Below, one piece after another: positions 28,146-42,429 of a stretch of 42,473 nt of DNA. Source of the stretch: a virus (Duplodnaviria; Caudoviricetes); IMG/VR virus record IMGVR_UViG_3300038492_000068, positions 1-42,473 of that record. One strand, 5' to 3'. Position 1 is the stretch's first letter, and each line of letters starts with the position of its first letter. Both the position numbers and the translations under genes were made by a program. The notes below the pieces were generated by a model. The model ran no database searches and was not told where the DNA came from. It saw only the letters and a program-made list of their open reading frames with translations.

Positions 28146-28857
28146 GGATGAATCCTCGGTAGTGCAGGTTCCACACAGCAGTGGCGTTCCCGACGGAGTC
28201 GTTGACTTTGAAGACAACAGAACTGTTACAAGGAACAATCAGCATAGCTGGGAATGTCACAACTTCGTTTGTAGCGTCGTTGTTATGTCTGTGCCTCAGA
28301 GACCAAGTAGAATCATTAGTTGCTGGGGTAACATCTCCGTCCGATACGTAAAGCAGGGCTTGAGATGTAGAGGTTGAGCTGGATGTCATAGTGAGTTCAG
28401 ACACTAGAATCAGGGCGCGAGGGTTGGCAGCAGTAGGGACGTTATCTAGGGCTGTCCAGATATTGTCTGCGCCTGACCCGGTAGGTCCGATAGACTCGAA
28501 GCCTGTGACGTTATAAACATCAATAGGAGACAGGCTGAGGGTTCCGTCTACTAGCTGTACGTTACCTCCGCGGACATGACTGGTTTGCACGGCGTATTTA
28601 TCGACCTTGGTATTCAGGGCTGTTTGCACTACCCCCGATAGACTATCAACATCCGCCGAGTCAATACCACTGTCTACGATGTCGCCACTGCTGTCTAGCT
28701 CTATAAGGTTTCCGGAAGTCCCTCCGATAATCTTGTTAGCTTTAGTACCAATAGCTGTAGCAATATTGTCAAACTCAGTGTCGTGGTCGGCACCAAGGAT
28801 TGTGTCATCGGCTGCGTCCTTAGCAGCGCCACCAAAGGTGTTTGTATAATCTGTCAC
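28138..28857 (-). CDS. Tail appendage/fibre paralog 1
   Basis: MTDYTNTF..AAKDA..DHDTEFDNIATAI.TKA virion-attachment-like N-terminus. Confidence 0.65.
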   Translation of the reverse strand: MTDYTNTFGGAAKDAADDTILGADHDTEFDNIATAIGTKANKIIGGTSGNLIELDSSGDIVDSGIDSADVDSLSGVVQTALNTKVDKYAVQTSHVRGGNVQLVDGTLSLSPIDVYNVTGFESIGPTGSGADNIWTALDNVPTAANPRALILVSELTMTSSSTSTSQALLYVSDGDVTPATNDSTWSLRHRHNNDATNEVVTFPAMLIVPCNSSVVFKVNDSVGNATAVWNLHYRGFIHD

Positions 28858-30380
28858 AGTCCAAGTCTCCCGAGCTTAGCAAGAATGTCGATACGTTGAA
28901 GACCAAAAGCTAGGCCGTTGATGTCAGTGGTGAATCCTACTTTAATAACCTGACCCGCTGATCCTACAGGATTCCGAATACGCTCGAACCCACCGCCGAG
29001 AACGTAGCTGTAGTTACCTCCCCAAGTAAAGTTACCCCCATAGCGCGGAGGCTCGTCACCTGAGAAGTTCATGGTTACGTTGTTGAAGGTGCTGGTATAG
29101 TCGAAGGCCCACTTGAAGGACACTGTCCCTCCCGGAGTACCAGACGCGAGCATACTCACGCTCTTCGGAATCTTGATGAAGTTACTTACTTCCTCTCCAA
29201 AGTCGTTCCACACCCCTTCATAATCAATTGTGTAAGAAGAGCCACCAGAGCCAGAAGAGCTAACCCCGTCCTTGTACCCTGTATAGGTAGACAGGTAGCC
29301 CGCAGTGACAGCCATATACATTGTGTTGTCAAGGGCATAGTGTAGAGCAGTAGGGGAGATGTCCCACTTAGTTGCTCTCCACGTCCCATCCTCGTTTGTA
29401 AACCTACGGTCGAAGTAGTAAGTCTTTCCGGCTGTAGGTAGGCTGACAATGTAAAAGCCCAGACGTTCATTGTAGCAGGACTTCACCTGCACAGCGGTCT
29501 CACCGTCTAGGTCGTCGAGAAAGTCGTCTCTGACGTGCTGTGAGAGGTCTGTAAGGGGCATCGATTGCTCGATGACGGTACGCTTCAGGGAGCGGAGTCC
29601 GGAGTTAGACACGAACACAAGGTCATCACCGACTAGCTGAATAGTGTCGCGGTAAGGGCAGCCGATGCCGGCAATACCTTCCACGATAGTCATGTTAGTA
29701 GGGTCGTCGGCGTTCTCGTAGATGATGATTGAGTGTTTGCCGAATACGATAAGCATTCCGTTGAAGTCGTGGATAGCTACAGCCTCGTCCATCCCGTCAG
29801 GCCAGTATTGCGCCAGCTCTAGAGAGCCGCTTGAGCCACTATCGAAGTCATTAATCAGGAGGTCAGAGTAGTAGAGCGTGCTTTCGAACACCGTCCACAG
29901 GCGTCCAAAGGCCGCGTGAACCATAGACCCGTCGTATTGAGTCCCGCTACTGTCGGCGAAGGAGGGGGATGTCGCGGAAGTTGTAACGATAGGGGAGTGG
30001 CCGTCTTGAAAGCCCACACACCAACCGTTGAAATTGACAAACTGCCAGTCGTCTCCTGTAGGGGTGGTGATTGTACCAGACACATCAGTCATGGTTCCAC
30101 TTACTTCTTTGTAAATCTTATTGTCGCAGGCGACGAGGTTCACTTTATTCCCGTCCCCGTCGATGTACTCGTGGATAGCCCGGACAGTAGGCGAGCTAGT
30201 GATGACTGTGCCGTTTACTTGGGCGTCCCCCTTGCGGGCAGCGAGGCGTCCTACCTCGTCGAACACGAAGTTCTCAGCCTTGGTCGCCCACCCCATAGGA
30301 AGGACAGAGCCCGCTCTCTGGGTGTTCAGCCCAAAGAAGCCCGGAGCGCTGATAGTTAGAGGAAGAAGCGGCTTAGCCAT
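28854..30380 (-). CDS. Tail hub/stabilisation protein (P22 gp10-like / tubular B-like)
   Basis: APGFFGLNTQ, GRLAARKG, GIGC...DTIQ; beta-rich; follows the adaptor gene. Confidence 0.7.
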   Translation of the reverse strand: MAKPLLPLTISAPGFFGLNTQRAGSVLPMGWATKAENFVFDEVGRLAARKGDAQVNGTVITSSPTVRAIHEYIDGDGNKVNLVACDNKIYKEVSGTMTDVSGTITTPTGDDWQFVNFNGWCVGFQDGHSPIVTTSATSPSFADSSGTQYDGSMVHAAFGRLWTVFESTLYYSDLLINDFDSGSSGSLELAQYWPDGMDEAVAIHDFNGMLIVFGKHSIIIYENADDPTNMTIVEGIAGIGCPYRDTIQLVGDDLVFVSNSGLRSLKRTVIEQSMPLTDLSQHVRDDFLDDLDGETAVQVKSCYNERLGFYIVSLPTAGKTYYFDRRFTNEDGTWRATKWDISPTALHYALDNTMYMAVTAGYLSTYTGYKDGVSSSGSGGSSYTIDYEGVWNDFGEEVSNFIKIPKSVSMLASGTPGGTVSFKWAFDYTSTFNNVTMNFSGDEPPRYGGNFTWGGNYSYVLGGGFERIRNPVGSAGQVIKVGFTTDINGLAFGLQRIDILAKLGRLGL

Positions 30381-31037
30381 TTAGATATACCAGTCTGTTT
30401 CACCGGGGAATAGGGCGGCGTCCATTGCGATAGCGTCGGAAAGTGCAAGCTGGTAGTCGCTCTGCACCTTTAACACTTGGTTGCCGTTGTCGTCGCCACG
30501 CTCTTCTAGGGCCTTCGCCCACGCTCCTAGCTTAACAGGCCAATCAGGGACACTGAGGGTCTCCGATCCTGTGCTGAAGTCCGACTGAGGAACGACGAGT
30601 TCAAAATTGATTGTGTAGATTCCATCCGGGATAGGATAGAATGTTACATACGGGTCTTCGTTTGAATCGAACCCGCTGAAATAAAAGTATGACGGTTCGT
30701 TCTGGGTGGTGTTATTTAGAAGAGCTTCCTTCATCCATTGGGCATCTTTCTGATAGATGCGCCCCAGATTGGTAGCGTCATACACGGAATAATTTGGGTG
30801 TTGGAGCTTGAATCTCTTGCCCGCTCCAGTGAGGGCGTATTGCTGAGTCCCGGCTGCGGTAGTAACCGATGTAGTGGTGCGCAGTACGTTCCACTTCCAA
30901 GCGTCCTCTACTTCCCTCTTCGCCTCATTGACGAAATCGCCGACTAGGGTGGCGTAGGTAGTAGATGTGGGCCCAGCCACTTCGCTCTCCCGCATCTTTC
31001 GAAGGACGAAGTTGATTAGATTGGTATATGTAGCCAT
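30381..31037 (-). CDS. Head-tail adaptor / tail tubular protein A-like
   Basis: TY..LIN.VLRKMRE, FVNEAKREVEDAWKW, YPIPDG.Y. Confidence 0.75.
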   Translation of the reverse strand: MATYTNLINFVLRKMRESEVAGPTSTTYATLVGDFVNEAKREVEDAWKWNVLRTTTSVTTAAGTQQYALTGAGKRFKLQHPNYSVYDATNLGRIYQKDAQWMKEALLNNTTQNEPSYFYFSGFDSNEDPYVTFYPIPDGIYTINFELVVPQSDFSTGSETLSVPDWPVKLGAWAKALEERGDDNGNQVLKVQSDYQLALSDAIAMDAALFPGETDWYI

Positions 31038-31055
31038 GTTTTTCCTCAGCAGGAA

Positions 31056-31073
31056 GGGGGCCCGAAGGCCCCC
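31056..31073 (-). terminator. Hairpin terminator/attenuator after the capsid genes
   Basis: GGGGGCC-TTCG-GGCCCCC on the minus strand with a short pyrimidine tail. Confidence 0.6.
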
Positions 31074-31080
31074 GTCCGTC

Positions 31081-31359
31081 TTACATTACGTCGTAAGGTA
31101 CAACCTTGACGCGGAGAGTTCCCGAGCCTAGGTCGATTGTGCCCCCTGTATTGTTACTCAGGGACACGGTAACGGTGTCGGCCGCAGTGACTTGAGCAGA
31201 AAGCTCAAGGTCACTTACGTCGATACTGAAAGAGACGAAGGCAAAGTCGCCTAGCTTAGCGCCAGGAACTGTGACTTCGAACGCCTCTTCATTACCGTCC
31301 AGCATAGAAGCTGGGTTTACCGTAGACGTTACGAGTGGATAGCCTGATAGTCTACTCAT
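31081..31359 (-). CDS. Putative capsid decoration/minor head protein
   Basis: Beta-rich 92 aa (VTVPGAKLGD..VTAADTVTV), directly after MCP, GGAGG RBS. Confidence 0.6.
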   Translation of the reverse strand: MSRLSGYPLVTSTVNPASMLDGNEEAFEVTVPGAKLGDFAFVSFSIDVSDLELSAQVTAADTVTVSLSNNTGGTIDLGSGTLRVKVVPYDVM

Positions 31360-31372
31360 GCATCACCTCCGA

Positions 31373-32326
31373 TTAAGAAGGTACGGCAAAAGCAACACCA
31401 GCATCATCACGAAGCTCTCCAACACCGTAGATTGTGTCCGCGGTGAAGAGATCAGCAAGATACTGTTGCATGTAGCTCGCTTGTGAGCGAACAGACATTT
31501 GCTCAACGTGCGCAATGGCGTCCTTGTGCAGGAGGCATCCGATGCGGTAAGTTGTGCTTGTGTCAGCAGCAGTTTCTGTCGGGCAGTTCGATGTTACGAA
31601 GACTTTAATCCCGTAAATATCACCGATCATACCTGTGCGGATAGTGTTTTGACCACCCATTTCACCTACAAAGGCTTGCTCAGTGAAGCGTGCGAGACCC
31701 ATAAGGTTGTTACGCTCTACCGGCGGAACGATGAGACTACGATCTGTTTGAGGCACGTCGGCGTCATCCAGAGTTTGAACCATCTTACGGATACCCGTGT
31801 CTGACAGGGTAGAACCGTTACCAGTGTTAGTGTTGGCAGTTTGGTCGTAAGCGGTAGAACCGTCACCACCGATAACCGCACCGGCCCATGCGCCTGTTCC
31901 CGAGGCACCACCACCTTGCAGGGATTCCCACTGGGCAGCGAGGTCGTCGTCTACCTGCTTGGCTAGGGCGTACCCAGCGTCGTCAGTGTAGAACGCACGG
32001 AAAGAGTCGATAGCCTGTACGCTCAGCAGGTCTTCAATAAGACGAGAATACTCGTAGTGCTTATCGATGCTGAGAGTGATCTCTGAAGCATTTTCAGTGA
32101 TCAGCGTTACAGTGTCTTCGGTTGCCTTCACAGAGGCAGTACCGCGTGTAGGCTTCGGAATGTGAATGGTATCACCTTTCTTACCTACGTGGTTGATTCT
32201 TGTTACCAGATTAGCGATAACAAGGTTCTTCTTATATGCCCCGATAACATCGTCCGACCACAGCTCCGGGATAAACTCGGCGTTGGTCGTAATGTTATGG
32301 GCACCTGTTGGGCTAAATGCAGCCAT
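31373..32326 (-). CDS. Major capsid protein
   Basis: FIPELWS, KKGDTIHIP, GYALAKQVD, G.IGDIYGIKVFVT, DTIYGVGELR. Confidence 0.9.
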   Translation of the reverse strand: MAAFSPTGAHNITTNAEFIPELWSDDVIGAYKKNLVIANLVTRINHVGKKGDTIHIPKPTRGTASVKATEDTVTLITENASEITLSIDKHYEYSRLIEDLLSVQAIDSFRAFYTDDAGYALAKQVDDDLAAQWESLQGGGASGTGAWAGAVIGGDGSTAYDQTANTNTGNGSTLSDTGIRKMVQTLDDADVPQTDRSLIVPPVERNNLMGLARFTEQAFVGEMGGQNTIRTGMIGDIYGIKVFVTSNCPTETAADTSTTYRIGCLLHKDAIAHVEQMSVRSQASYMQQYLADLFTADTIYGVGELRDDAGVAFAVPS

Positions 32327-32340
32327 TTATACAAGTCTCC

Positions 32341-33159
32341 TTAAATAACTCTACCTTCGGCGTAGGCTTGCATAATTTCGTCACGCATTGACTCGTATCG
32401 TTGAGGCTGATGGAGTTTCATGTGGATCAGGTCGGAGCGCTTGTACTTCTTTTTCGGCGCTTCACCGGAACCACCCCTTTCAACAGATGCATCCTTGAGG
32501 GCACCCTTGGCTTTCGCATCTCGCTCGGCCGTGGCTTCCTCGTTGGTCACCCGCTTCGTCTGCTTGTACAGGGACAGCAGGTCATCAGCTTCGTCCACGT
32601 CGTTGTTGACGTGAGCTTGCTGTAGACGAGCTACTCGGGCGGGCTTCTCAGCTAGCCACTGCTGGAACTCCGGAGATGCAACAACATCGTCCGCATCCGA
32701 GTGGCGCTTGATTAGCTCTTCACGAGCATCTTGCTGTGCCTGTGTTGCGAGCTTCTCTTCGAGGCTCTTCAGGCGAGGGTTCTTCTCCAATGCTTTCTCA
32801 ACAGCCCGTGACGGGCTTTCGACGAAATCATTAAAATCTACTTCGGTATCATCAGAATTCCGCTCGACAGTTTGTTGTTGAGCGGGGCTATAACGGTCCT
32901 GAAGAATCTGGTCCGTCAGTCTACGCAGCTCGCCTACTTCGTTGTTCTTCTGTCCGAGAGCTTTTTCGACGTGGAGGTAGGACTCTACCACCTCTTCGAG
33001 GCTCTTGTTCTGAAATTTCTCAGGGACTTGGAACTTTGGCTTTTGGTCTTCGACATTGTCTTCGACCTTAGCTACTGGTGTTTCGACGACCTCTTCAATA
33101 GGGTTACCGTCTTTGTCGTAGAGGCTGACTTCCGTCACTTCCTCAGTTACATTTTCCAT
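32341..33159 (-). CDS. Scaffolding protein
   Basis: PEKFQNKS, NEVGELRRL, C-terminal EIMQAYAEGRV; acidic; upstream of MCP. Confidence 0.85.
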   Translation of the reverse strand: MENVTEEVTEVSLYDKDGNPIEEVVETPVAKVEDNVEDQKPKFQVPEKFQNKSLEEVVESYLHVEKALGQKNNEVGELRRLTDQILQDRYSPAQQQTVERNSDDTEVDFNDFVESPSRAVEKALEKNPRLKSLEEKLATQAQQDAREELIKRHSDADDVVASPEFQQWLAEKPARVARLQQAHVNNDVDEADDLLSLYKQTKRVTNEEATAERDAKAKGALKDASVERGGSGEAPKKKYKRSDLIHMKLHQPQRYESMRDEIMQAYAEGRVI

Positions 33160-33219
33160 AATAGTTTCCGCCTTTCGGTTAGGGTTATCACCGGGAGACT
33201 ATGGAGAGTCCTTGACCGG

Positions 33220-33450
33220 CTAGTCTTTTGGCAGGGCACGCCCCGCCTTCTCATGGTCCCGTGCCCACTTGTCGTAGGCGTCGGGGAAGCCCGGATCAGT
33301 TCCATCCAGTCTAGAGCGCACTGGACTGATTTGCCGGACTAATGCGCCACCACACTCAGGGCATGGCAGCGTGTGGACTGAACTTTTCACCAGCTCTTCG
33401 CTGGCGTAAGAACAGTCGCAGCATTCAAAATCAAATAATAAGAGGCTCAT
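33220..33450 (-). CDS. Zinc-ribbon protein (FmdB-like)
   Basis: FDFECCDC...CPECG...DPGFPDAYDKW; likely start 33450. Confidence 0.7.
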   Translation of the reverse strand: MSLLLFDFECCDCSYASEELVKSSVHTLPCPECGGALVRQISPVRSRLDGTDPGFPDAYDKWARDHEKAGRALPKD

Positions 33451-33691
33451 CGTCTGACTCCGTTTGCTGTTGTTGCGCTTTCCAAGCGGCACGGACTAGG
33501 TTTTCGTACCCGACGACAGCTCGGAGCTGGGTCATACGACCACGAGCAAACTGCCACTTATCGTTGGTGTCGGCGTAATCCACGGCTGCGTCCTTTAGTG
33601 CTGTCAGCAGCTCTTCCGCTTCCTCGATATAAGACTTCCACGCGGGAAGTTGGAACATGTCTAGCATGTCCTCGTACTCTTTCTCTGTCAT
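33431..33691 (-). CDS. Conserved hypothetical protein downstream of portal
   Basis: AGGAG RBS; MF..PAWK..IEE and FARG motif. Confidence 0.75.
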   Translation of the reverse strand: MTEKEYEDMLDMFQLPAWKSYIEEAEELLTALKDAAVDYADTNDKWQFARGRMTQLRAVVGYENLVRAAWKAQQQQTESDDEPLII

Positions 33692-33707
33692 GGTTCTCCT
33701 TTATGGG

Positions 33708-35735
33708 CTATGACTTTTTAATTTTCCCAGCCAGCGCCACGCGTGCTTTACGCTGCGAGTCGCGTTCGGACTGAGACATTTGGACAGCGGTTACGAGACT
33801 GTCCTGCTCCTGCTCGGCGAGTGCCACTTGGGCATCGAGAGCAATCTTGCGTGCCTTGAGTTGAAGCTCTTGACGCTCCAGTTCGAGGCGTTGAATTTCC
33901 AGTTGAAGGTCTTTGTTGTCCTTGTCTGCCTTTTGAGCCAGCTTCGCCTGTTCGAGCTGAGCCTTCACTTCGATCTCTTTCATCTGGATAGCAACGAGAG
34001 GATCGGGCTCTGGGTTAGCTTGCTTCTGTAGACTGATCTGCATCATCTGATCAATTACGGGCAGCATCTCTTCGCGGATAGTTAGGTCGCTGTTTTGGAA
34101 CAGACCCTTCAGCAGCATCCAGAACGCAGGGCTTTCGGCCGGTACGGTCTTCAGCATGTTAGCTAGGTTCTGCTGTTCCATTTCCCGAGCCATCATACCA
34201 AGAGTGCTATTTACGTTAAACGTCACGTCCTCAATAGGATAGCGGTCGGGAGCGAACTGCATATATCTCCACGCGCTCTTGTTGATAAACGGCTTGGTGA
34301 AGTTTCTCTCGATGTTGGCGAGGGTGCGCTTGCTGCGCTTGATAGCCCCGCCTTGGATCATGCTCATTCCGCCGAAAGTTTCGTTACGACGGTTCTCCCC
34401 GATTGGTGTGGCAGAGTCCATTGCGCCTGTACCCATTTGCACCATGCGCTCCAGTTCCCCGCTCTGACTGAACGTGGTAGGAGATACTTGGCCGAAGGTG
34501 AACGGCATCAGGATGTCCTTGGGGTTGCCATTGGTAAGAACATTACGGCCCGGAGCAACCTGGAAGTTGGCACCACGGGGCATACGGCTGGCGTCCATCG
34601 CCATCATCGGGTGAATGGACAGAGCCATCGCATCAATCCGACCACGCATTTCCGCGTCAAGAGCCTTCTGGGCGTTGTAGCCCTTCTCAGCGATACCGCG
34701 GCCCCAAAAGCGGTTAGGCACAGTGTCGTGCTGGTACGCTACGAAGCAGCGGTCTTTCATCAGGTACGGGTTTTCGATGGCGCGGAGAAGCTCAGTCCCA
34801 TTGGCGATAGTGATAACGGCCTCTACTAGGTCTGTTTCGTCAACGATGAGGTCCTCTTCGTCCAGCTCGATCTCTTCGTCGAACGCTTCAACCTCCAGCA
34901 GGAGGGAGCGCGGAACGAGACCGTGGTACTCAACAATCAGGGTCTTATCTTCTTCCCGAGAGTCTCGGCTCAGGCTGTCCTTATCAGTCTGAGAGCTGAG
35001 CGAACCGACGATGCTGTCGGTGTACGCGCCGATAGGTACGTTGCGGTAGGTACCGCTCATCTGCTTAGTCTGAACTACGTGCTTCGGAACCACAGTGATA
35101 TGCGCCATTCCTAGAGCCTCGTCAATAGTACGGGCTGTTGGGTCGATGACGAATTCCTTCGGACTGACAGGCACAAGGGAGACACGGACAGTGTCTCTTT
35201 CTTCCACACCGGCCTCATCAATATCGGAATCACCGATACGATTAGGCACCACACGACGCTCTGTAGCTTCGCGCAGGATCAGCTTGCCAACTCCTGTTCC
35301 GTACAGAGCACCGTTCAGGAACACCTCGGAAACAGACGCACGGACATTCTCCTTGTCAAAATCCTCGTCGAGCTGGTCACGCCACATCTGGATGTCGGCG
35401 GACTCTGTATCCCCGTAGTTATCTGACACGTCAAACCACTTCCCACCGCCAAAGGTAGCTTCTTCTAGCTCAGCAACAGTGGACTCGATGGCCTGTGACA
35501 GGGCGGGGGAGATGAGTTTACTTCTCTCAGAGTGTCGGGTCTTGTCCTCAGACGCCCAGATGCCGCGCCATAGTCGATAGTATTCGTCCCAGTGCGTGTC
35601 TAGGTTTTGCTTACGGAAATCTTCCCAAGCTGTGACGCGAGTCATAACCCATCTTACAAGGCTGCCCGGACTGGCTGTCCGCTGCTGTTGTGCCCCATTA
35701 GTAGGGTCTACTACAATGTCTGTTCGTTTTGCCAT
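33708..35735 (-). CDS. Portal protein
   Basis: 675 aa; YGTGVGK, DTVPNRFWGRGIAEKGYN.QKALD; C-terminal coiled coil. Confidence 0.9.
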   Translation of the reverse strand: MAKRTDIVVDPTNGAQQQRTASPGSLVRWVMTRVTAWEDFRKQNLDTHWDEYYRLWRGIWASEDKTRHSERSKLISPALSQAIESTVAELEEATFGGGKWFDVSDNYGDTESADIQMWRDQLDEDFDKENVRASVSEVFLNGALYGTGVGKLILREATERRVVPNRIGDSDIDEAGVEERDTVRVSLVPVSPKEFVIDPTARTIDEALGMAHITVVPKHVVQTKQMSGTYRNVPIGAYTDSIVGSLSSQTDKDSLSRDSREEDKTLIVEYHGLVPRSLLLEVEAFDEEIELDEEDLIVDETDLVEAVITIANGTELLRAIENPYLMKDRCFVAYQHDTVPNRFWGRGIAEKGYNAQKALDAEMRGRIDAMALSIHPMMAMDASRMPRGANFQVAPGRNVLTNGNPKDILMPFTFGQVSPTTFSQSGELERMVQMGTGAMDSATPIGENRRNETFGGMSMIQGGAIKRSKRTLANIERNFTKPFINKSAWRYMQFAPDRYPIEDVTFNVNSTLGMMAREMEQQNLANMLKTVPAESPAFWMLLKGLFQNSDLTIREEMLPVIDQMMQISLQKQANPEPDPLVAIQMKEIEVKAQLEQAKLAQKADKDNKDLQLEIQRLELERQELQLKARKIALDAQVALAEQEQDSLVTAVQMSQSERDSQRKARVALAGKIKKS

Positions 35736-37015
35736 TAGTATCCTGATACGTCGTCAAGGGGGTTGTACTCCCCGATCATCCAACCTTGGTCGTAGATCGC
35801 TGTGCTGATCTGGTCGATGTAGGCTAGAGCGTCTGGAAGGTCATCGTGCGCCAGTGGGTTCGGGAAGTCAAGGAGCTGATCCTCCAGCTTCTTAACCCAG
35901 GGGGCATCCTTCTTGAATTTGATGCGTCCATTCTGGAATCGCCCTTGCAGGGCCCAGAGGATACGCTCTGTCTTGTGCTGACCACCGTGGGTCAGCGTCT
36001 CGATGCGAGGGTATACACTCATACGTCGCATCTGGTCTTCTAGGTACGGCATGATAGCGTTCTTCAAGCTGCCCTTCTCGATCCCCACGCACGAGGCGCG
36101 ATACTGTTGAGCTGCCCGGATAATACGGAGAGAGGTTTCCCGCACACCCCAGCGGCCACTGATCATGTCGTGGACAAACCATCCTGAAGGACCTACCTCT
36201 ACGACAGCGATAGCGTGTTCGTCAAGCCGCTTGAGCTTGGACTGCACCATCCCCTGTCCATCACTAAAGCCAGCGGGGTCTACGGTGATGTAGATTGTTC
36301 CCTTCTCTTCTGGCTTGTCAGCGTGCAGGAATTGGTCAGCACTAAATGCACCACCGCCTGCGGCCTCGAAGCTGGCCTCAAACTCTTGACGGAAAGCATC
36401 AGCACTCATACGAGTACGGGCGCGTTCTAGTTCGTCCTCAGAGATGATAGGATTGTCAAGGCTATTAAAGTGGAATGAATCCCACTCTTCTTCACTTTCT
36501 TCCGCCGCGGACACCCAGAGGTCGTAGAAGTGGTTCTTACCATTAGGTGTCCCGATGAATAGAGCTTCGCCTCGGGAGTCGGCCAGGGCCGGACCAATGA
36601 TCATATCCCACACGCTCGGCTTCATGAACGCATATTCGTCAAGCACCACGTAGGCGAGGGAAACACCTCGAAGGGTGTCGGGTCTATCCGACCCTTTGAG
36701 CTTGATAGTACGTCCGTTGATCAGAGTCATGGTGCTGGTGTTCTCATGCACCTTTTTGATCATTCCTTGGGACAGTTCCTTTAGCTGGCCCCAGAGAATG
36801 TCCCGTGCCTGTTGGTAGGTCGGGGCTACGTACCACACTTCCTTACCCTTCAATGGGACCCCGAAGCGGTTTTTAGTCTTAAGTGCTTCTAAAATTAGAG
36901 TGATAGCAGAGAGGTATGTCTTGCCTGCACGTCGGCCCGCCGCGACTACTTTAAATCGAGCGGGTGAAAGGAACACTTCCCTTTGCTTCGCGTGCAGATC
37001 AAACTTTAGGTCCAC
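35735..37015 (-). CDS. terL: Terminase large subunit
   Basis: Walker A AGRRAGKT, Walker B VVLDEYA, FIGTPNG, TVDPAG, HDDLPDA. Confidence 0.95.
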   Translation of the reverse strand: MDLKFDLHAKQREVFLSPARFKVVAAGRRAGKTYLSAITLILEALKTKNRFGVPLKGKEVWYVAPTYQQARDILWGQLKELSQGMIKKVHENTSTMTLINGRTIKLKGSDRPDTLRGVSLAYVVLDEYAFMKPSVWDMIIGPALADSRGEALFIGTPNGKNHFYDLWVSAAEESEEEWDSFHFNSLDNPIISEDELERARTRMSADAFRQEFEASFEAAGGGAFSADQFLHADKPEEKGTIYITVDPAGFSDGQGMVQSKLKRLDEHAIAVVEVGPSGWFVHDMISGRWGVRETSLRIIRAAQQYRASCVGIEKGSLKNAIMPYLEDQMRRMSVYPRIETLTHGGQHKTERILWALQGRFQNGRIKFKKDAPWVKKLEDQLLDFPNPLAHDDLPDALAYIDQISTAIYDQGWMIGEYNPLDDVSGY

Positions 37016-37833
37016 TACTCTTTACCTCTTGGGTCATACCAGCCTAGCGCTCGAAGCTTGAGAAAACCTGTAGCGCTGGTCGCTCGGTAGTGATACTCTT
37101 GAGATGTGTTGACCCACACATTCAATACTACAGAGTCAACCCCGGACGTAGTGACAACTACGGTACGGTTATTATCGGCGGGGGTCGCATCGGCCTCGTC
37201 CGCCCCATACACTCGGACGACATTGACCGCACCGTTGTAAACAAGATCGACGCCTACGATAGCCTCCACTTCAACGCCGGCAGGGACGGTAGCTTGGACG
37301 GTAGCCTCGGTTGTTGAGATGGAGCTTGTGTCCAACGTCTCGATGGGTGCGTGCCAATCAAACCTGTCTTTATGCTGCGAGAAGGCTCGGATATTGTTCG
37401 AGCTGTCGGTCGCAATACTACCTACCCGGCGATAATAGATGTAATCGGTGGCGTCCGCTAGCAGGTTCGTCGCAGTAAGGCTGGTATCAAAGCCAGCATC
37501 AACCGTCCCGTCCGCCTTCCTGAGGACAAACACATGATACCATGTATCAGCCGACAGGGTTAGTCCTGATGGGAATCCTCCAGCATCGTCACCCTCTGCC
37601 CAATCCACGTCGATCTGCTTGGTCAAACTGGATGTTGTAGAGATGACGTTATCGTTGGTACTATCCATCGCAGAACCAGCGGCAATATCTAGATCGTGGT
37701 CCGCGTCTGTAGCGTTATTCGACAGCGTAAACCCGTCGATATAGTTACGCATCAGGTTGGTCAGCCCGTCAAGCTGATCGTACGTCCACCTGCGCCATGT
37801 CGCTGTCTTTGTTGTTGACCCGTAAATAGCCAT
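37015..37833 (-). CDS. Virion structural / tail-appendage-like protein
   Basis: GFTLSNNATDA.HDLDIAAGSA.D, WYHVF, RRVGS; Thr/Asp-rich beta sequence. Confidence 0.6.
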   Translation of the reverse strand: MAIYGSTTKTATWRRWTYDQLDGLTNLMRNYIDGFTLSNNATDADHDLDIAAGSAMDSTNDNVISTTSSLTKQIDVDWAEGDDAGGFPSGLTLSADTWYHVFVLRKADGTVDAGFDTSLTATNLLADATDYIYYRRVGSIATDSSNNIRAFSQHKDRFDWHAPIETLDTSSISTTEATVQATVPAGVEVEAIVGVDLVYNGAVNVVRVYGADEADATPADNNRTVVVTTSGVDSVVLNVWVNTSQEYHYRATSATGFLKLRALGWYDPRGKE

Positions 37834-38433: not shown

Positions 38434-38510
38434 TGGAGCCCCAGCTCGGAATCGCGCCGAGTTCCCCTGTTTACAAGACAGGGCATCATCTAATAAATGC
38501 TTCGTGAGGC
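38434..38510 (-). tRNA. tRNA-Thr(UGU)
   Basis: Anticodon arm CCUGU-CUUGUAA-ACAGG; encoded CCA; T-loop CGCGAUU; bulged acceptor stem. Confidence 0.8.
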
Positions 38511-38515
38511 ATATT

Positions 38516-38588
38516 TGGCAGAGCGTGAGGGATTCGAACCCCCTCAGTAAGCGTTTGGAGTGCCACCCGGACCGATCCTGTACGCCCT
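38516..38588 (-). tRNA. tRNA-Trp(CCA)
   Basis: A1-U72, G73, loop CUCCAAA, T-loop UUCGAAU; weak anticodon stem. Confidence 0.7.
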
Positions 38589-38594
38589 ATAATT

Positions 38595-38682
38595 TGGAGG
38601 AAGGCAAGAGAGTCGAACTCTTACAGCCCGTCAGGGCCATCACGGGGTTCAAGCCCGATAAGCACGCCACATGCGGCCTTCC
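38595..38682 (-). tRNA. tRNA-Ser(UGA)
   Basis: GGAAGGC acceptor, long variable arm, loop CUUGAAC, CCA. Confidence 0.85.
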
Positions 38683-38683
38683 T

Positions 38684-38758
38684 TGGTGGAGCCAGATGGT
38701 ATCGCGCCATCCTCTTCAGTGTTTCAAACTGACGCTAATCTATCTCAGCTACAGCTCC
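38684..38758 (-). tRNA. tRNA-Phe(GAA)
   Basis: UCAGU-UUGAAAC-ACUGA; A73; T-loop CGCGAUA. Confidence 0.85.
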
Positions 38759-38759
38759 T

Positions 38760-38832
38760 TGGTACTCCGTCACGGTTACGCTCCGCGCACCCCTTCCTTG
38801 TAAGAGATGGGTCTGGACCTAGCAGTCGGAGT
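38760..38832 (-). tRNA. tRNA-Val(UAC)
   Basis: Loop CUUACAA, A73, T-loop AGCGUAA; irregular D arm. Confidence 0.7.
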
Positions 38833-38836
38833 AAAT

Positions 38837-38911
38837 TGGTTGCCACGGTTGGATTTGCACCAACGTCCGTCGGTTATCAGCCGACTGCTACGCTAACTCA
38901 GCTACGCGGCA
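38837..38911 (-). tRNA. tRNA-Ile(GAU)
   Basis: GUCGG-CUGAUAA-CCGAC; A73; T-loop UGCAAAU. Confidence 0.85.
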
Positions 38912-38912
38912 G

Positions 38913-38984
38913 TGGTAGCGGGTACCGGTAACGCTCCGGTCTATCTGAGGTTATGGGCCTCTGACGGTCTCTTGACCACCCGCA
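38913..38984 (-). tRNA. tRNA-Met(CAU), initiator-like
   Basis: Loop CCCAUAA; U1xU72 mismatch; GCGGG acceptor; A73; T-loop AGCGUUA. Confidence 0.7.
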
Positions 38985-38989
38985 TCAAT

Positions 38990-39073
38990 TGGAACACGAG
39001 ACGGGATTCGAACCCGCGAACCTTTCGGGCTGGGGTGAAGGCCCAGCTTCTTTAGCCACTTGAATACTCGTGT
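38990..39073 (-). tRNA. tRNA-Glu(UUC) with enlarged variable region
   Basis: CUGGG-CCUUCAC-CCCAG; variable region CCGAAAGG hairpin; 84 nt. Confidence 0.7.
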
Positions 39074-39077
39074 ATGT

Positions 39078-39153
39078 TGGAGCGAGCGGAGGGAATCGAA
39101 CCCTGCCCAGCATGGCTTGGAAGGCCAGCGCTACGACCCGCGTAGACGCCCGC
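39078..39153 (-). tRNA. tRNA-Gly(UCC)
   Basis: GCGGGCG acceptor, U73, loop CUUCCAA. Confidence 0.85.
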
Positions 39154-39158
39154 ATGTT

Positions 39159-39235
39159 TGGCAGCTCCGACGGGAATCGAACCCGCCTCCTTCCTCCTAG
39201 ACAGGGAGGTGTACTCGCCAGAATACTACGAAGCT
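39159..39235 (-). tRNA. tRNA-Asp(GUC)
   Basis: CCUCC-CUGUCUA-GGAGG; G73. Confidence 0.85.
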
Positions 39236-39241
39236 ATTGTT

Positions 39242-39317
39242 TGGCGAGAGCGCAGGACTTCCACCTGTCTATGATCCTTGTCGGGTAATAACCCTTACGG
39301 CTTAGCATTGTACTCTC
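39242..39317 (-). ncRNA. Degenerate tRNA-like element, anticodon unclear
   Basis: GAGAGU/GCUCUC acceptor, T-arm CAGG-UGGAAGU-CCUG, CCA end, 76 nt; no clean anticodon stem. Confidence 0.5.
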
Positions 39318-39327
39318 TATTGTTTTT

Positions 39328-39405
39328 TGGCTCCCCGTCGTGGACTCGAACCACGCTCTTTCTTGATTAACAGTCAAGCGCCATCTCCCGGACGACTCAC
39401 GAGGA
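39328..39405 (-). tRNA. tRNA-Asn(GUU)
   Basis: UCCUCGU acceptor, G73, CUUGA-CUGUUAA-UCAAG. Confidence 0.88.
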
Positions 39406-39413
39406 ATAATAAT

Positions 39414-39487
39414 TGGAGGTCTCGGTCGGTGCGAGCCGACATCCTCTCGCTTTGCAGGCGAGCGCATATCCTTTCTGCCACGAGACC
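39414..39487 (-). tRNA. tRNA-Cys(GCA)
   Basis: U73; CUCGC-CUGCAAA-GCGAG; 6-nt T-loop CUCGCA. Confidence 0.85.
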
Positions 39488-39488
39488 T

Positions 39489-39575
39489 TGGAGGAGGGCA
39501 CTGGATTCGAACCAGAAGCGTTGCCGCTCGGTACGCTTAGCAGGCGACCCCCGTCACCATCAGGGGTTACCCTCC
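39489..39575 (-). tRNA. tRNA-Ser(GCU)
   Basis: GGAGGGU acceptor, long variable arm, loop CUGCUAA. Confidence 0.85.
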
Positions 39576-39651
39576 AACTTACCTTTTTATGGATCCAGTC
39601 CACCCGATGATCCTCGGGGCGTCGTTTCAGCAGCCGCGCATTCATGAATTT

Positions 39652-39737
39652 TGGTGTAGAGGGCTGGATTTGAACCAACACGGACTAGCCGACCTGTGGG
39701 TTACAACCACGTACCCTACCGAATGGGTGTCCTCTAC
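39652..39737 (-). tRNA. tRNA-Tyr(GUA)
   Basis: Loop UUGUAAC, long variable arm, A73. Confidence 0.85.
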
Positions 39738-39742
39738 TAATT

Positions 39743-39817
39743 TGGTCAGAACGGTAGGACTCGAACCTACAGTATGTGTGTCCAAGACACATGGTTTACC
39801 TGTTAACCGACGCTCTG
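39743..39817 (-). tRNA. tRNA-Pro(UGG)
   Basis: C1-G72, A73, UGUGU-CUUGGAC-ACACA. Confidence 0.85.
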
Positions 39818-39823
39818 ATTGTT

Positions 39824-39898
39824 TGGAAGTCCCGACTGGATTTGCACCAGTAGCGCATGGGTTCAAAGCCCAGCATGTTGCTGTTACACCACGAGACA
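39824..39898 (-). tRNA. tRNA-Gln(UUG)
   Basis: UGGG-CUUUGAA-CCCA; U1xU72; T-loop UGCAAAU. Confidence 0.8.
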
Positions 39899-39904
39899 AT
39901 TATT

Positions 39905-39974
39905 TGGTACCCTAGGCAGGATTCGAACCTACCACCGTCGGCTTAGAAGACCTTGGCCGTCCATCGGCTAGGGT
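39905..39974 (-). tRNA. tRNA-Arg(UCU), short D arm
   Basis: Perfect 7-bp acceptor ACCCUAG/CUAGGGU; loop CUUCUAA; 70 nt. Confidence 0.75.
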
Positions 39975-39975
39975 A

Positions 39976-40016
39976 TGGCGCACCGGTATTGGGTGACCCC
40001 CGGTACAAGGGGCGCG
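39976..40016 (-). ncRNA. 41-nt CCA-ended mini tRNA-like RNA
   Basis: CGCGCCCCUUGUACCGGGGGUCACCCAAUACCGGUGCGCCA fills the slot between two tRNAs; termini can pair. Confidence 0.45.
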
Positions 40017-40017
40017 T

Positions 40018-40090
40018 TGGTGGAGCTACACGGAATCAAACCGTGCCCTCGATCTTGCAAGGATCATGGTGCTACTCATAGACTAGCCCC
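40018..40090 (-). tRNA. tRNA-Ala(UGC)
   Basis: GGGGCUA acceptor with G3-U70, A73, loop CUUGCAA. Confidence 0.88.
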
Positions 40091-40095
40091 TTGAT

Positions 40096-40171
40096 TGGTT
40101 GGAGTGGAGGGACTCTAACCCCCATCTGTCCGGGTAAGAACCGGAAGTAATAACAGTTATACGACACTCCA
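40096..40171 (-). tRNA. tRNA-Lys(CUU)
   Basis: UCCGG-UUCUUAC-CCGGA; A73; T-loop UUAGAGU. Confidence 0.85.
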
Positions 40172-40172
40172 T

Positions 40173-40249
40173 TGGTCGGCCCCGAGGGATTCGAACCCCC
40201 ATCTGCTCGGGTAAAAGCCGAGGGTAATGCGCAATTATACGAGAGACCG
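40173..40249 (-). tRNA. tRNA-Lys(UUU)
   Basis: CUCGG-CUUUUAC-CCGAG; A73; canonical T-loop. Confidence 0.85.
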
Positions 40250-40255
40250 TTGAAT

Positions 40256-40327
40256 TGGACCCCTAGGTAGGATTCGAACCTACAACCCTCGGATTCGTAG
40301 TCCAAGCTCCGTCCATCCGGCTAGGAG
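40256..40327 (-). tRNA. tRNA-Arg(ACG)
   Basis: Loop CUACGAA; canonical T arm; short D arm. Confidence 0.8.
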
Positions 40328-40335
40328 TTGTGCTA

Positions 40336-40384
40336 GGCGGGGAGAGGCCTTCAGCCTCCCATCCCTCTTGCCAGAGGGCCCGCC
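40336..40384 (-). ncRNA. Three-way-junction structured element without CCA
   Basis: GGCGGG/CCCGCC closes hairpins CCCUCU-GGCA-AGAGGG and GGGAGGC-UGAAG-GCCUCUC. Confidence 0.55.
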
Positions 40385-40390
40385 GCGCTT

Positions 40391-40467
40391 TGGTACCCAG
40401 TGCAGGAGTCGAACCTGCAAAATTCTGTTTCTAAGACAGACACGTATGCCAATTCCGTCAACTGGGC
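40391..40467 (-). tRNA. tRNA-Leu(UAG), short variable loop
   Basis: UCUGU-CUUAGAA-ACAGA; A73; 77 nt. Confidence 0.85.
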
Positions 40468-40472
40468 ATTGT

Positions 40473-40543
40473 TGGGGTGAGGCGGAGATTCGAACTCCTC
40501 AGCGTGGGTCACAACCGCGCTTGCTACCCTGAGCTACCTCAAC
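40473..40543 (-). tRNA. tRNA-His(GUG)
   Basis: G-1:C73; CGCGG-UUGUGAC-CCACG; 5' end overlaps the methyltransferase stop codon. Confidence 0.75.
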
Positions 40544-41099
40544 TCGTTGCCACCTTGAAAGTGGCTACCATACCTTTCTTCTCCCAGTCCTCAATCACGT
40601 AGTGCTTTCTGAGGACAGACAGCCACCATTCGGCAGGCTGCACTGTAAGATGTAAAGGCTCATCGGTAAACTTTCCGTTATCTTTATGAAGGAAGATTCG
40701 GTAGTAAATTTTATCACAGTGATTACGCACTCTGCGGAAGACAGCATTGACCTTATTCTCCGGTATATGCTCCATCACGTCACAGCAGAATCCGTAGTCA
40801 TAATGCTCGGGAAGGTCTAGCTCCCAGAGGCACTGCTGGTAGAACGGGAGCTTGACACTCTCATCCCTGCAATTATATGCGTGGTCAACCATGTGGACGT
40901 GTGCGTGTCCTGCTTCGGAGATGGCTCGGGCTGCCTGCCCTGTGCCACACCCCAAATCCACCACGGAACCTTGTCCTCCAGTCCACTCTAGGAAGTCGGG
41001 GACACTGAGTCTGCCCGGACTGATTCGGCTGTAGTCCGGATTGTCCCACACCTTCTCGTATTTTTCTCGTTCTACTTGTTCAAGTGAGTCTGAGGACAT
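40539..41099 (-). CDS. Class I SAM-dependent methyltransferase
   Basis: Motif I VVDLGCGTG; FCCDVMEHIP; HLTVQPAEWW. Confidence 0.85.
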   Translation of the reverse strand: MSSDSLEQVEREKYEKVWDNPDYSRISPGRLSVPDFLEWTGGQGSVVDLGCGTGQAARAISEAGHAHVHMVDHAYNCRDESVKLPFYQQCLWELDLPEHYDYGFCCDVMEHIPENKVNAVFRRVRNHCDKIYYRIFLHKDNGKFTDEPLHLTVQPAEWWLSVLRKHYVIEDWEKKGMVATFKVATS

Positions 41100-41740: not shown

Positions 41741-42040
41741 TCATTCGTGGTTACGAGGGTCTGGGAGAAGCTCTCCCGTACTGATATTGACGTATTTGGG
41801 GTCCCACTCGTGTGTGGGAGGCACGACAAGACACTGCATAGGGTCGTGGCCTGACGGAATTGGCTGGTCTTTGAGGATGTAGCCGGGAGAACACACAACA
41901 GTGGTTCCATCCTTCATGTGCAGCAAGGCGACACCATCGACATAGGCCGGAACACCGTCTGCCCTACTGCCCTTGATGTGCCCGCAGGAGATTACAACCA
42001 CCGCGAACACAAAGTACATCCAAAACCTGTTAAAAATCAC
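41741..42040 (-). CDS. Hypothetical secreted/membrane protein
   Basis: N-terminal hydrophobic segment ending in ISC; GTGA overlap with the upstream gene. Confidence 0.6.
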   Translation of the reverse strand: MIFNRFWMYFVFAVVVISCGHIKGSRADGVPAYVDGVALLHMKDGTTVVCSPGYILKDQPIPSGHDPMQCLVVPPTHEWDPKYVNISTGELLPDPRNHE

Positions 42041-42429
42041 TCCACTTCCTCAAATTCTGCGTCTTCGATCACCTCTCCTGTCACCAGGGGGGTCTTTTCA
42101 AGCTCTCCGATGGAGATGTTGAGCGTCAGTCCGCCCTTCTTACTGGCTTCGGAGGGGTCCACAGCCTTCGAGGCAGGGATTACACGGTCCAGAACCAGTT
42201 TGATTGCTTGCATGTCGCCTTCGTGGGCCTTCTCGAACAGCACATCGAAGGTTTTCTTGATGTTCTTCTCTGCAATCTGTTCAAACTTGCCTTGCATCAG
42301 CTCTCTGAACAGTGTTGTCTTGTTCTTTGCACCCGGAGGTCGGCCGGGTCTCTTCTTCACAGGGGCCTTAATTTCCTGTTCTTCTTCTTCACTACCCAAA
42401 ACGGGCTCTAAAGTATTGTTTTTACTCAT
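42037..42429 (-). CDS. Putative terminase small subunit
   Basis: GRPPGAKNK, A.EGDMQAIKLVLDR.IP, C-terminal IEDAEFEEV; heads the late operon. Confidence 0.7.
   Translation of the reverse strand: MSKNNTLEPVLGSEEEEQEIKAPVKKRPGRPPGAKNKTTLFRELMQGKFEQIAEKNIKKTFDVLFEKAHEGDMQAIKLVLDRVIPASKAVDPSEASKKGGLTLNISIGELEKTPLVTGEVIEDAEFEEVE

What the first reader, a model, noticed from the sequence alone, without database searches (positions are those of the whole stretch)
38434..40543. A 42-kb podovirus encodes tRNAs for all 20 amino acids in one 2.1-kb array
Seen: 23 hand-folded tRNA genes, all with encoded CCA and mostly 1-10 nt apart: His, Leu(UAG), Arg(ACG), Lys(UUU), Lys(CUU), Ala, Arg(UCU), Gln, Pro, Tyr, Ser(GCU), Cys, Asn, Asp, Gly, Glu, Met, Ile, Val, Phe, Ser(UGA), Trp, Thr. 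Family boxes are covered by single U34 tRNAs (Arg by A34), a near-minimal decoding set lacking Leu(UUR), Ile(AUA) and a second Met tRNA. Known: arrays this large are typical of much larger phages such as T5-like and large myoviruses, while LUZ24/PaP3-type podoviruses carry only a few. Inference: a nearly self-sufficient replacement tRNA pool, useful if host tRNAs are destroyed by defence nucleases or by the phage itself.
Basis: partly seen in the sequence, partly recalled or inferred. Interest (0 to 1): 0.88.

Follow-up and report, generated by a model that had tools for sequence, protein, structure and literature searches.

The report
Tiny phage with self-sufficient tRNA set
A small 42.5-kb aquatic phage packs 23 transfer-RNA genes, at least one per amino acid, into 2.1 kb, and its late genes have largely dropped the five codons this set is predicted not to read, so it likely builds new virus particles mostly with its own tRNAs; unrelated small Streptomyces phages carry a similar cassette.

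Summary
There are 23 CCA-ending tRNA genes for all 20 amino acids at 38434-40543 (-), 10.9 per kb, in an essentially complete 42.5-kb podovirus-type genome. ARAGORN's default finds only 17; Met folds only by hand.

It is not unprecedented. Streptomyces cluster BF podoviruses (43.7-46.5 kb) carry 15-21 tRNAs, and FlowerPower has all 20 isotypes in 2.07 kb. This phage shares no detectable protein with FlowerPower, and its own relatives carry 0-4 tRNAs, so this is likely an independent origin.

The new evidence is functional. The five codons most depleted in late versus early genes (of 59) are ATA, TTA, TTG, AGG and CGG, exactly those the array is predicted not to read or to read poorly; array-read rare codons (CTA, AGA) are kept. 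None of 12 array-less controls shows this. FlowerPower purges its own, different unread set. Odd tRNAs keep identity elements and co-varying elbow contacts.

Best reading: late translation runs mainly on phage tRNAs after host tRNAs decline. Expression, charging, host and cause of depletion are untested. This scan earlier noted BF cassettes, larger podovirus arrays and G55/A18 elbows on other DNA.

The parts
40473..40543 (-). tRNA-His(GUG), encoded G-1 and C73; its 5' end overlaps the stop codon of the upstream methyltransferase
40391..40467 (-). tRNA-Leu(UAG), short variable loop, A73
40328..40390 (-). Spacer D: stable three-way junction of unknown function, no CCA
   Evidence: z -2.8; no Rfam hit; no blastn hit in phages
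40256..40327 (-). tRNA-Arg(ACG), 3-bp D stem stacked directly on the acceptor stem
40173..40249 (-). tRNA-Lys(UUU), lacks the AriB target motif
   Evidence: PMC12409363
40096..40171 (-). tRNA-Lys(CUU), A56 with U19; paralogue of Lys(UUU)
40018..40090 (-). tRNA-Ala(UGC), G3.U70 and A73, minimal D arm
   Evidence: ARAGORN at 85%
39976..40015 (-). Spacer C: 40-nt CCA-ending hairpin, minihelix-like, weak fold
   Evidence: z -0.5
39905..39974 (-). tRNA-Arg(UCU), 80% identical to Arg(ACG), likely a local duplication
39824..39898 (-). tRNA-Gln(UUG), G55 with A18
39743..39817 (-). tRNA-Pro(UGG), G72/A73, A37 instead of G37
39652..39737 (-). tRNA-Tyr(GUA), long variable arm
39576..39651 (-). Spacer A: weakly folded, CCA at 39590, unexplained
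   Evidence: z +0.8; only chance blastn hits
39489..39575 (-). tRNA-Ser(GCU), long variable arm, U73
39414..39487 (-). tRNA-Cys(GCA), U73, 6-nt T loop
39328..39405 (-). tRNA-Asn(GUU), G73, retains the AriB motif
39242..39317 (-). Spacer B: 76-nt CCA-ending tRNA-like RNA with acceptor stem and T arm but no recognisable D or anticodon arm
   Evidence: no Rfam hit; no blastn hit
39159..39235 (-). tRNA-Asp(GUC), G73, U37
39078..39153 (-). tRNA-Gly(UCC), G1-C72, C2-G71, G3-C70, U73
38990..39073 (-). tRNA-Glu(UUC) with class II-like D loop, small variable-arm hairpin and C33
   Evidence: homologue in a co-occurring contig with compensatory changes
38913..38984 (-). tRNA-Met(CAU), initiator-type: 1-72 mismatch, G2-C71, C3-G70, A73, au/GC/GC anticodon stem
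   Evidence: cloverleaf is the MFE, z -3.4; features per PMC5389676; missed by ARAGORN and Rfam
38837..38911 (-). tRNA-Ile(GAU), G55 with A18
38760..38832 (-). tRNA-Val(UAC), A54/G55 T loop
   Evidence: ARAGORN at 90%
38684..38758 (-). tRNA-Phe(GAA), G55 with A18
38595..38682 (-). tRNA-Ser(UGA), long variable arm, U73
38516..38588 (-). tRNA-Trp(CCA), G73, carries G3.U70
   Evidence: ARAGORN at 95%
38434..38510 (-). tRNA-Thr(UGU), G55 with A18, A39 (the change that blocks AriB in tRNA-Lys)
   Evidence: PMC12409363
38400..38419 (-). Terminator-like hairpin 14 nt downstream of the last tRNA
   Evidence: consensus scan only
40539..41099 (-). Class I SAM methyltransferase just upstream; probably not tRNA-specific
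   Evidence: homologue loci lack tRNAs
20175..37833 (-). Late arm (terminase, portal, capsid, adaptor, nozzle-like, internal virion and lysis genes) whose codon use matches the array
42037..42429 (-). First late gene, likely small terminase (DUF5681-like, below cut-off)

Best explanation
This 42.5-kb phage carries 23 tRNA genes for all 20 amino acids in one 2.1-kb block inside its late gene region, and its late genes have largely dropped the five codons that this set is predicted not to read or to read poorly, so late in infection it likely makes its virion proteins mainly with its own tRNAs as the host's tRNA pool declines. Shown: the genes, their CCA ends, their position between late genes on the same strand, their identity elements, and the late-specific codon purge. 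Inferred: co-transcription with the late operon, processing by host RNase P and 3' exonucleases, charging by host synthetases, wobble or superwobble reading of family boxes by one U34 tRNA each and of CGU/CGC/CGA by Arg with I34. Also inferred: that host tRNAs fall broadly (host-genome destruction, shut-off or a broad tRNase defence) rather than one species at a time. Independence is not total: about 0.9% of late codons remain unread by the set, and no elongator Met tRNA is evident.
For: (1) ATA, TTA, TTG, AGG and CGG are ranks 1-5 of 59 for late/early depletion at equal GC3 (0.551 vs 0.543): ATA 4/303 vs 80/337, TTA+TTG 29/522 vs 104/462, AGG 15/339 vs 52/341, CGG 26/339 vs 61/341. The capsid gene has none of the five in 316 codons; the portal has no TTA, TTG, ATA or AGG in 674. 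(2) Codons recalled as rare in highly expressed bacterial genes but read by the array are kept: CTA +0.57, ACA +0.17, AGA -0.08, CGA -0.19 log2. (3) 0 of 12 control genomes with 0-4 tRNAs have all five in the lowest five; their late share is 3.3-7.8% against 1.3% here. GC-matched G001 keeps TTR at 59/307 and PaP3 at 89/546. (4) Reciprocal control: FlowerPower's 8 most late-depleted codons are its own 8 unread ones (TTG 0/606, TTA 0/606, CAA 0/428, AGA 0/394, ATA 0/344, AAA 0/444, CGG, GAA), while AGG is enriched there, where a weak Arg(CCU) gene exists. (5) Discriminator bases match the bacterial determinant in 16 of the 18 tRNAs for which I saw one in PMC9976931 Table 1; Ala, Gly and His keep their full acceptor sets. 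(6) Elbow covariation: 5 of 6 G55 tRNAs lack D-loop GG and all 6 have AG, against 3 of 17 U55 tRNAs lacking GG (p=0.009, hand-assigned loops). (7) Precedent for late reliance on phage tRNAs: vibriophage 2.275.O and Sf14, as described in PMC12482277.
Against: No RNA data; expression and charging are untested. 59 of 6300 late codons are TTA, TTG, ATA or CGG, so some host tRNAs or misreading must persist. AUG is not clearly depleted (2.0% late; controls 1.7-2.7%) although the only CAU tRNA looks like an initiator. G001, with one tRNA, shows a milder trend for ATA, TTA and AGG (ranks 1-3), and the ATA difference from G001 is not significant (p=0.14), so part of the signal is general late-gene bias. 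Only 3 of 12 controls are GC-matched, and Fisher tests treat codons as independent. Both Ser tRNAs lack G73, Asp lacks C38, Pro lacks G37; MFE z-scores of most units are weak. No phage tRNase was identified.
Confidence: 0.58

Rival explanations
1. Supply boosting without host depletion: host tRNAs stay intact, the phage floods the pool with one tRNA per amino acid, and late genes drift to the codons that are abundant then.
For: Residual unread codons remain (0.9%) and internal AUG is normal without an evident elongator Met tRNA. PMC9753666 reports that BF capsid codon use correlates best with the combined phage plus host pool.
Against: The purge reaches zero in the most abundant genes here and in six codons across FlowerPower's late genes, which is more than optimisation usually needs. 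Supplementation would not require exactly one tRNA for every amino acid.
Confidence: 0.22
2. Counter-defence against specific host anticodon nucleases: the divergent tRNAs are cleavage-resistant replacements, and the CCA-ending spacer RNAs act as decoys.
For: Lys(UUU) and Thr(UGU) lack the AriB motif, and Thr has the A39 change shown to block AriB in tRNA-Lys (PMC12409363). Several loops deviate (U37 in Asp, A37 in Pro, C33 in Glu and Met). Hypothesis in PMC10264068.
Against: Asn keeps the full AriB motif. The host and its defences are unknown. Known nucleases hit a few tRNAs, which does not by itself explain a full set or loss of Leu(UUR) and Ile(AUA) codons. It can coexist with the best explanation as the cause of depletion.
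Confidence: 0.15
3. A decaying or hitch-hiking cassette of largely pseudogenised tRNAs, with the codon pattern reflecting ordinary high-expression bias.
For: 6 of 23 units fall below ARAGORN's default and 12 below Rfam's gathering score; four spacers look like remnants; relatives lack the array.
Against: All 23 keep CCA; acceptor stems have 6 or 7 of 7 pairs; identity elements and elbow contacts are kept; the codon purge tracks the anticodon set here and, reciprocally, in FlowerPower.
Confidence: 0.05

Closest known systems
tRNA cassette of Streptomyces cluster BF podoviruses (Beephvirinae: FlowerPower, Destructrice, Abafar and others; PMC9753666, PMC13097060, PMC11536984)
   Same: Podovirus of 43.7-46.5 kb; about 21 tRNAs for all 20 amino acids in 2.07 kb inside the late region; one tRNA per family box, short-arm Leu(UAG), one Met, no Leu(UUR) or Ile(AUA) reader; late genes purge unread codons.
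   Different: No protein homology (0 hits for 15 proteins, and for 46 proteins; capsid E=1.5), no array similarity, different gene order and anticodons (UUG, UUC, UUU, UCU, UGU, UGA here; CUG, CUC, CCU, AGU, AGA there). All 23 encode CCA here, while most BF genes do not. Aquatic, probably Gram-negative host.
Large phage tRNA clusters (Morgado and Vicente 2019, PMC6409571; T5-like, Felix O1-like, Otagovirus Bobbio, Pakpunavirus)
   Same: At least 15 tRNA genes at 2 or more per kb; single tRNAs are 60-90% identical to those of such phages; His next to Leu(UAG) also in Bobbio.
   Different: That survey found clusters only in 72-617-kb genomes, at about 2-10 per kb, with 8 of 228 covering all 20 isotypes. 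Here: 42.5 kb, 10.9 per kb, no protein gene inside the array.
All-destructive infection model (vibriophage 2.275.O, Shigella phage Sf14; read through PMC12482277)
   Same: Late genes fit the phage tRNA pool and early genes do not.
   Different: Those are much larger phages and the fit is a statistical preference; here it is a near-exclusion of named codons. Host tRNA loss is not measured here.
PaP3/LUZ24 (Bruynoghevirus), RIO-1 (Zobellviridae) and phiEco32-type podoviruses
   Same: Two-arm genome; amidoligase, glutamine amidotransferase, ATP-grasp and COOH-NH2 ligase cluster; primase-helicase; PolA; tRNAs near the start of the late arm in PaP3.
   Different: Only 24-50% identity in early genes; virion genes belong to an uncultured group; PaP3 has 4 tRNAs, RIO-1 none annotated.
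Bacterial long tRNA arrays (L-arrays; PMC8421152)
   Same: Long, non-periodic, co-oriented array as a second tRNA set.
   Different: In a lytic phage's late region; no adjacent HNH or RtcB gene found; covers each amino acid once rather than adding redundancy to a host set.

Membership tests
tRNA gene cluster (Morgado and Vicente) | At least 15 tRNA genes | tested here: met
   17 by default ARAGORN, 23 in all
tRNA gene cluster (Morgado and Vicente) | Density of at least 2 tRNAs per kb | tested here: met
   23 in 2110 nt = 10.9 per kb
Beephvirinae / cluster BF cassette | Shared gene content with BF phages | tested here: not met
   No tblastn or blastp hit against FlowerPower; only one BF genome was compared directly, and no Streptomyces phage appears among 54 capsid hits
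Beephvirinae / cluster BF cassette | Homologous array sequence and gene order | tested here: not met
   No blastn match to L247; order differs
Beephvirinae / cluster BF cassette | Works like it: about one tRNA per amino acid in the late region, with unread codons purged from late genes | tested here: met
Podovirus morphotype | Portal, adaptor and nozzle without tail tube, sheath or tape measure | tested here: met
   phrog_1216 portal, PF24175 above cut-off, nozzle-like phrog_5107/578, no long-tail hit in 53 proteins
Podovirus morphotype | Short tail seen by microscopy | not testable with these tools
   uncultured
Bruynoghevirus (PaP3/LUZ24) | Homologous virion module | tested here: not met
   0 late-gene hits at E<1e-5; portal E=3e-4
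Zobellviridae | Shared replication and virion core genes | tested here: inconclusive
   10 early genes hit RIO-1 at 24-35%, but only capsid (26%) and partial terminase among late genes; no tree built
Bacterial initiator tRNA (38913-38984) | 1-72 mismatch with G2-C71 and C3-G70 | tested here: met
   PMC5389676
Bacterial initiator tRNA (38913-38984) | Three G-C pairs in the anticodon stem or a natural variant | tested here: met
   au/GC/GC, the natural variant of alphaproteobacteria and some mycoplasmas (PMC5389676)
Functional tRNA set | Transcribed, processed and aminoacylated | not testable with these tools
   Only DNA runs hold the sequence

The most novel reading that the evidence does not exclude
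A 42.5-kb phage has evolved, independently of the Streptomyces BF phages, a mitochondrion-like minimal decoding system: 23 shrunken tRNAs with rewired elbows, a single Met tRNA that serves both initiation and elongation, and CCA-ending tRNA mimics as nuclease decoys. It switches the cell to this private code late in infection by removing host tRNAs, so TTA, TTG, ATA, AGG and CGG become effectively blank codons that silence host and early phage mRNAs while late genes run on.
Probability: 0.2. Interest if true: 0.85.

Novelty: new variant of a known kind. Interest (0 to 1): 0.55.

Why it matters
Why phages carry tRNAs has been open for decades: codon supplementation, replacement after host destruction, or nuclease escape. 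Two unrelated small podoviruses, each with a complete but different minimal anticodon set, each purge exactly their own unread codons from late genes only. That is a natural reciprocal experiment favouring replacement, and it names the codons at which ribosomes should stall late in infection. The BF side is in culture, so the prediction can be tested now. The array is also a compact natural example of near-minimal bacterial decoding with non-standard tRNA shapes. Default annotation sees only 15 of its 20 amino acids, so such sets may be undercounted in small phages. At 42.5 kb it is smaller than any genome with such an array that my searches returned (BF minimum 43.7 kb).

Tried and rejected
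Relatives with a homologous array: none. ARAGORN on 409 loci (mostly terminase, capsid, portal, methyltransferase and small-terminase relatives, many too short to reach the array position) found arrays only in copies of this genome and in reference phages fetched on purpose; L025 has 3-4 tRNAs, L028/L288 and L325 one each. Rfam tRNA search of 25 whole records: besides the copy G025, 4 of 24 have 1-3 matches; 1 of 11 near-complete records has one tRNA. These relatives are distant (terminase up to 79%), so the age of the array is not fixed.

Pattern scans: an Arg D-arm motif gave 7 loci, 6 unrelated without tRNAs; a Glu T-arm motif gave two contigs with ordinary Glu tRNAs.

Spacer elements: no Rfam family, no meaningful blastn hit. 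Hidden Ile(UAU), Leu(UAA) or elongator Met genes there were considered and rejected, because no proper anticodon arm folds. A shrunken RNase P RNA (lead from e1-3432542) was rejected because the spacers are 43-92 nt and Rfam gave no hit.

The PHROG label 'tRNA methyltransferase' for 40539-41099 was rejected as a functional link: its 79 other homologue loci carry no array, and G010 has it and its neighbour without tRNAs.

No phage tRNase or RNA ligase was found; the Atlas gave only sub-0.9 leads for 5213-6094 and did not answer for 41072-41653. No convincing late promoter motif emerged. No RNA holder listed.

G006 was left out of the 12 controls because it is 47% complete and nearly single-stranded in coding; it is and shows no purge. 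The FlowerPower early set was noisy and was replaced by annotated genes.

Paper searches that found no report of a complete tRNA set in a sub-50-kb podovirus outside cluster BF; A18/G55 in phage tRNAs: (0 papers). Subscription papers are not covered and no supplementary files were read; Table S3 of PMC6409571 may bear on the size range.


Full report
1. The observation. ARAGORN finds 17 tRNA genes at default, all on the minus strand between 38434 and 40542. Lowering the threshold adds Trp (95%), Phe, Val and Arg-UCU (90%, with no call elsewhere in the genome) and Ala (85%, where spurious calls begin). Met at 38913-38984 is missed at every setting, but its minimum-energy structure is a cloverleaf (z -3.4). 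All 23 end in CCA; 18 of 22 gaps are 1-8 nt and four are 43-92 nt. Density is 10.9 per kb and tRNAs fill about 83% of the block.

2. The genome. The record is 42,473 nt, CheckV 100%. L001 is identical at 8885 of 8886 nt and joins the two window ends through 82 extra bases; the window's 3' end and L001's start carry the same primer-like tag. The plus arm encodes an amidoligase and amidotransferase cluster, primase-helicase, PolA, a sigma factor and nucleases, resembling PaP3, RIO-1 and phiEco32-type phages at 24-50%. The minus arm encodes terminase, portal, capsid, an SU10-type adaptor and a nozzle-like protein, with no long-tail genes. Virion genes have no close cultured relative but many uncultured ones (terminase up to 79%). 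The array lies inside the late arm, between a methyltransferase whose stop codon overlaps tRNA-His and a terminator-like hairpin. Four DNA runs of one 2016 aquatic study hold it. The host is unknown: the Met anticodon stem is the variant typical of alphaproteobacteria (PMC5389676), while His has G-1 and C73, unlike Caulobacter-type alphaproteobacteria (PMC9976931), and the replication arm resembles gammaproteobacterial phages.

3. Are the odd tRNAs real? Acceptor stems have 6 or 7 of 7 pairs. The discriminator matches the bacterial determinant in 16 of 18 cases visible in PMC9976931 Table 1; both Ser genes have U73. Ala keeps G3.U70, Gly its three top pairs, His G-1:C73. Six tRNAs have G55; five of them lack D-loop GG and all six have AG, against 3 of 17 U55 tRNAs lacking GG (p=0.009; loops assigned by hand). 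Two of those three have compensated 19-56 pairs (Lys-CUU, Ala). The Glu gene has a small variable-arm hairpin, and a homologue in a co-occurring contig keeps that hairpin and changes one anticodon-stem pair on both sides (read from the difference table). The Arg pair (80% identical) and the Lys pair look like local duplications. Against: Asp has U37 and no C38, Pro has A37, Trp carries the Ala-type G3.U70, and most single-unit folding z-scores are weak.

4. The codon test. By standard wobble rules (recalled) the set cannot read TTA, TTG, ATA or CGG and reads AGG poorly. These five are the five most depleted of 59 codons in 21 late genes against 25 early genes at equal GC3: ATA 4/303 vs 80/337, TTR 29/522 vs 104/462, AGG 15/339 vs 52/341, CGG 26/339 vs 61/341. 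Rare codons that the array reads are kept or enriched (CTA, ACA, AGA, CGA). Among 12 control genomes with 0-4 tRNAs none has this ranking, and the five codons make up 3.3-7.8% of late codons against 1.3% here. Every listed capsid orthologue at 60% identity or more keeps TTR codons; this capsid gene has none (first 40 rows per gene printed). The GC-matched relative G001 shows a milder trend for ATA, TTA and AGG, so TTG and the depth of the purge are the specific signals (TTR 29/522 vs 59/307, p=2e-9; ATA p=0.14).

5. The precedent and the reciprocal control. Streptomyces cluster BF podoviruses carry 15-21 tRNAs in one segment (PMC9753666, PMC13097060, PMC11536984). FlowerPower (46,133 bp) has 21 annotated tRNAs for all 20 amino acids in 2,072 nt, and 29 records of 24 distinct phages of 43.7-46.5 kb share the cassette. 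It shares no detectable protein or array sequence with the window. Its anticodons differ, and so does its purge: the eight most late-depleted codons are TTG, CAA, AGA, ATA, CGG, TTA, AAA and GAA, six of them at zero, while AGG, CTA, CCA, GGA and GTA, which it can read, are enriched. CAA and AGA are kept here and absent there; AGG is depleted here and enriched there. The Arg(CCU) gene behind that last point is unannotated and scores below ARAGORN's default.

6. Mechanism. Most likely the late transcript is cut into tRNAs by host enzymes, charged by host synthetases, and these tRNAs carry most late translation once host tRNAs decline (0.58). Rivals: supply boosting with intact host tRNAs (0.22), escape from specific nucleases (0.15; Lys-UUU and Thr-UGU lack the AriB motif of PMC12409363, Asn keeps it), and decay (0.05). 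The cause of depletion is not shown; no tRNase gene was found. About 0.9% of late codons remain unread and internal AUG is normal, so either host tRNAs linger or the initiator-type Met tRNA also elongates.

7. Unexplained. Four spacers hold a three-way junction (40328-40390, z -2.8), a 40-nt CCA-ending hairpin, a weakly folded 76-nt gap, and a 76-nt CCA-ending element with acceptor stem and T arm but no anticodon arm (39242-39317). None has a known family or a homologue in my searches.

8. Verdict. A real and probably functional complete minimal tRNA set. The kind is known (phage tRNA clusters; BF cassettes of the same size and completeness). This is a likely independent variant in an uncultured aquatic lineage, with unusually strong codon evidence for late self-sufficiency. 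Interest 0.55.

9. What I read. PMC9753666: main text and table (part 1 of 2). PMC13097060: main text and table (part 1 of 2). PMC6409571: abstract and parts 1-2 of 3 of the body. Passages only: PMC13015707, PMC12409363, PMC10264068, PMC8421152, PMC12482277, PMC11536984, PMC5389676, PMC9976931. Yang et al. 2021 on phage 2.275.O is known to me only through PMC12482277 and PMC10264068. No supplements were read. Wobble rules, the list of classically rare codons, RNase P processing and the comparison with mitochondrial tRNA sets are recalled and come from no call.

Noticed in passing
L247 (FlowerPower MH155868) 16057-16148: The unannotated gap between tRNA-Pro and tRNA-Gly reads as a tRNA 3' half followed by a 5' half, like a circularly permuted tRNA gene. 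A rotated form passes ARAGORN's default threshold but with an unresolved anticodon. No shuffle control, no covariation test.
   Followed up: partly
L247 17915-17987: Unannotated, sub-threshold tRNA-Arg(CCU) in FlowerPower; AGG is enriched in its late genes.
   Followed up: partly
L247 17252-17495: A 244-nt unannotated stretch inside the FlowerPower array that may hold another RNA.
   Followed up: no
window 40539-40543: The methyltransferase stop codon lies inside the tRNA-His acceptor stem, so 5' processing of the tRNA would leave a stop-less mRNA.
   Followed up: no
window 38516-38588: tRNA-Trp carries G2-C71, G3.U70 and G4-C69, the Ala determinants, with G73; it might be partly mischarged with Ala.
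   Followed up: no
window 38993-39075, runs X1 and X2: Another genome in the same samples (contigs of 1.5 and 11.9 kb) carries a homologous long-variable-loop tRNA-Glu, and others match tRNA-His; they may hold a related array.
   Followed up: partly
L025 246-563: A terminase relative (59%) has four tRNAs (Gly, Leu, Pro, His) directly upstream of the terminase; its His is 79% like the window's.
   Followed up: partly
window 4613-5041: PagP-like lipid A acylation gene, suggesting a Gram-negative host and surface remodelling.
   Followed up: no
window 12362-13066: HtrA-like serine protease gene between primase-helicase and polymerase.
   Followed up: no
window 13063-14875: DNA polymerase is split into an exonuclease ORF and a polymerase ORF that overlap by 38 nt, as in PaP3-type phages.
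   Followed up: no
window 37834-38376: Two small minus-strand ORFs (about 50 and 60 aa) and about 200 non-coding bases follow the array; possible late promoter region, no motif found.
   Followed up: partly
window 42457-42473: A primer-like 17-base tag at the window end, also at the start of L001, is likely a random-amplification adapter rather than phage DNA.
   Followed up: yes
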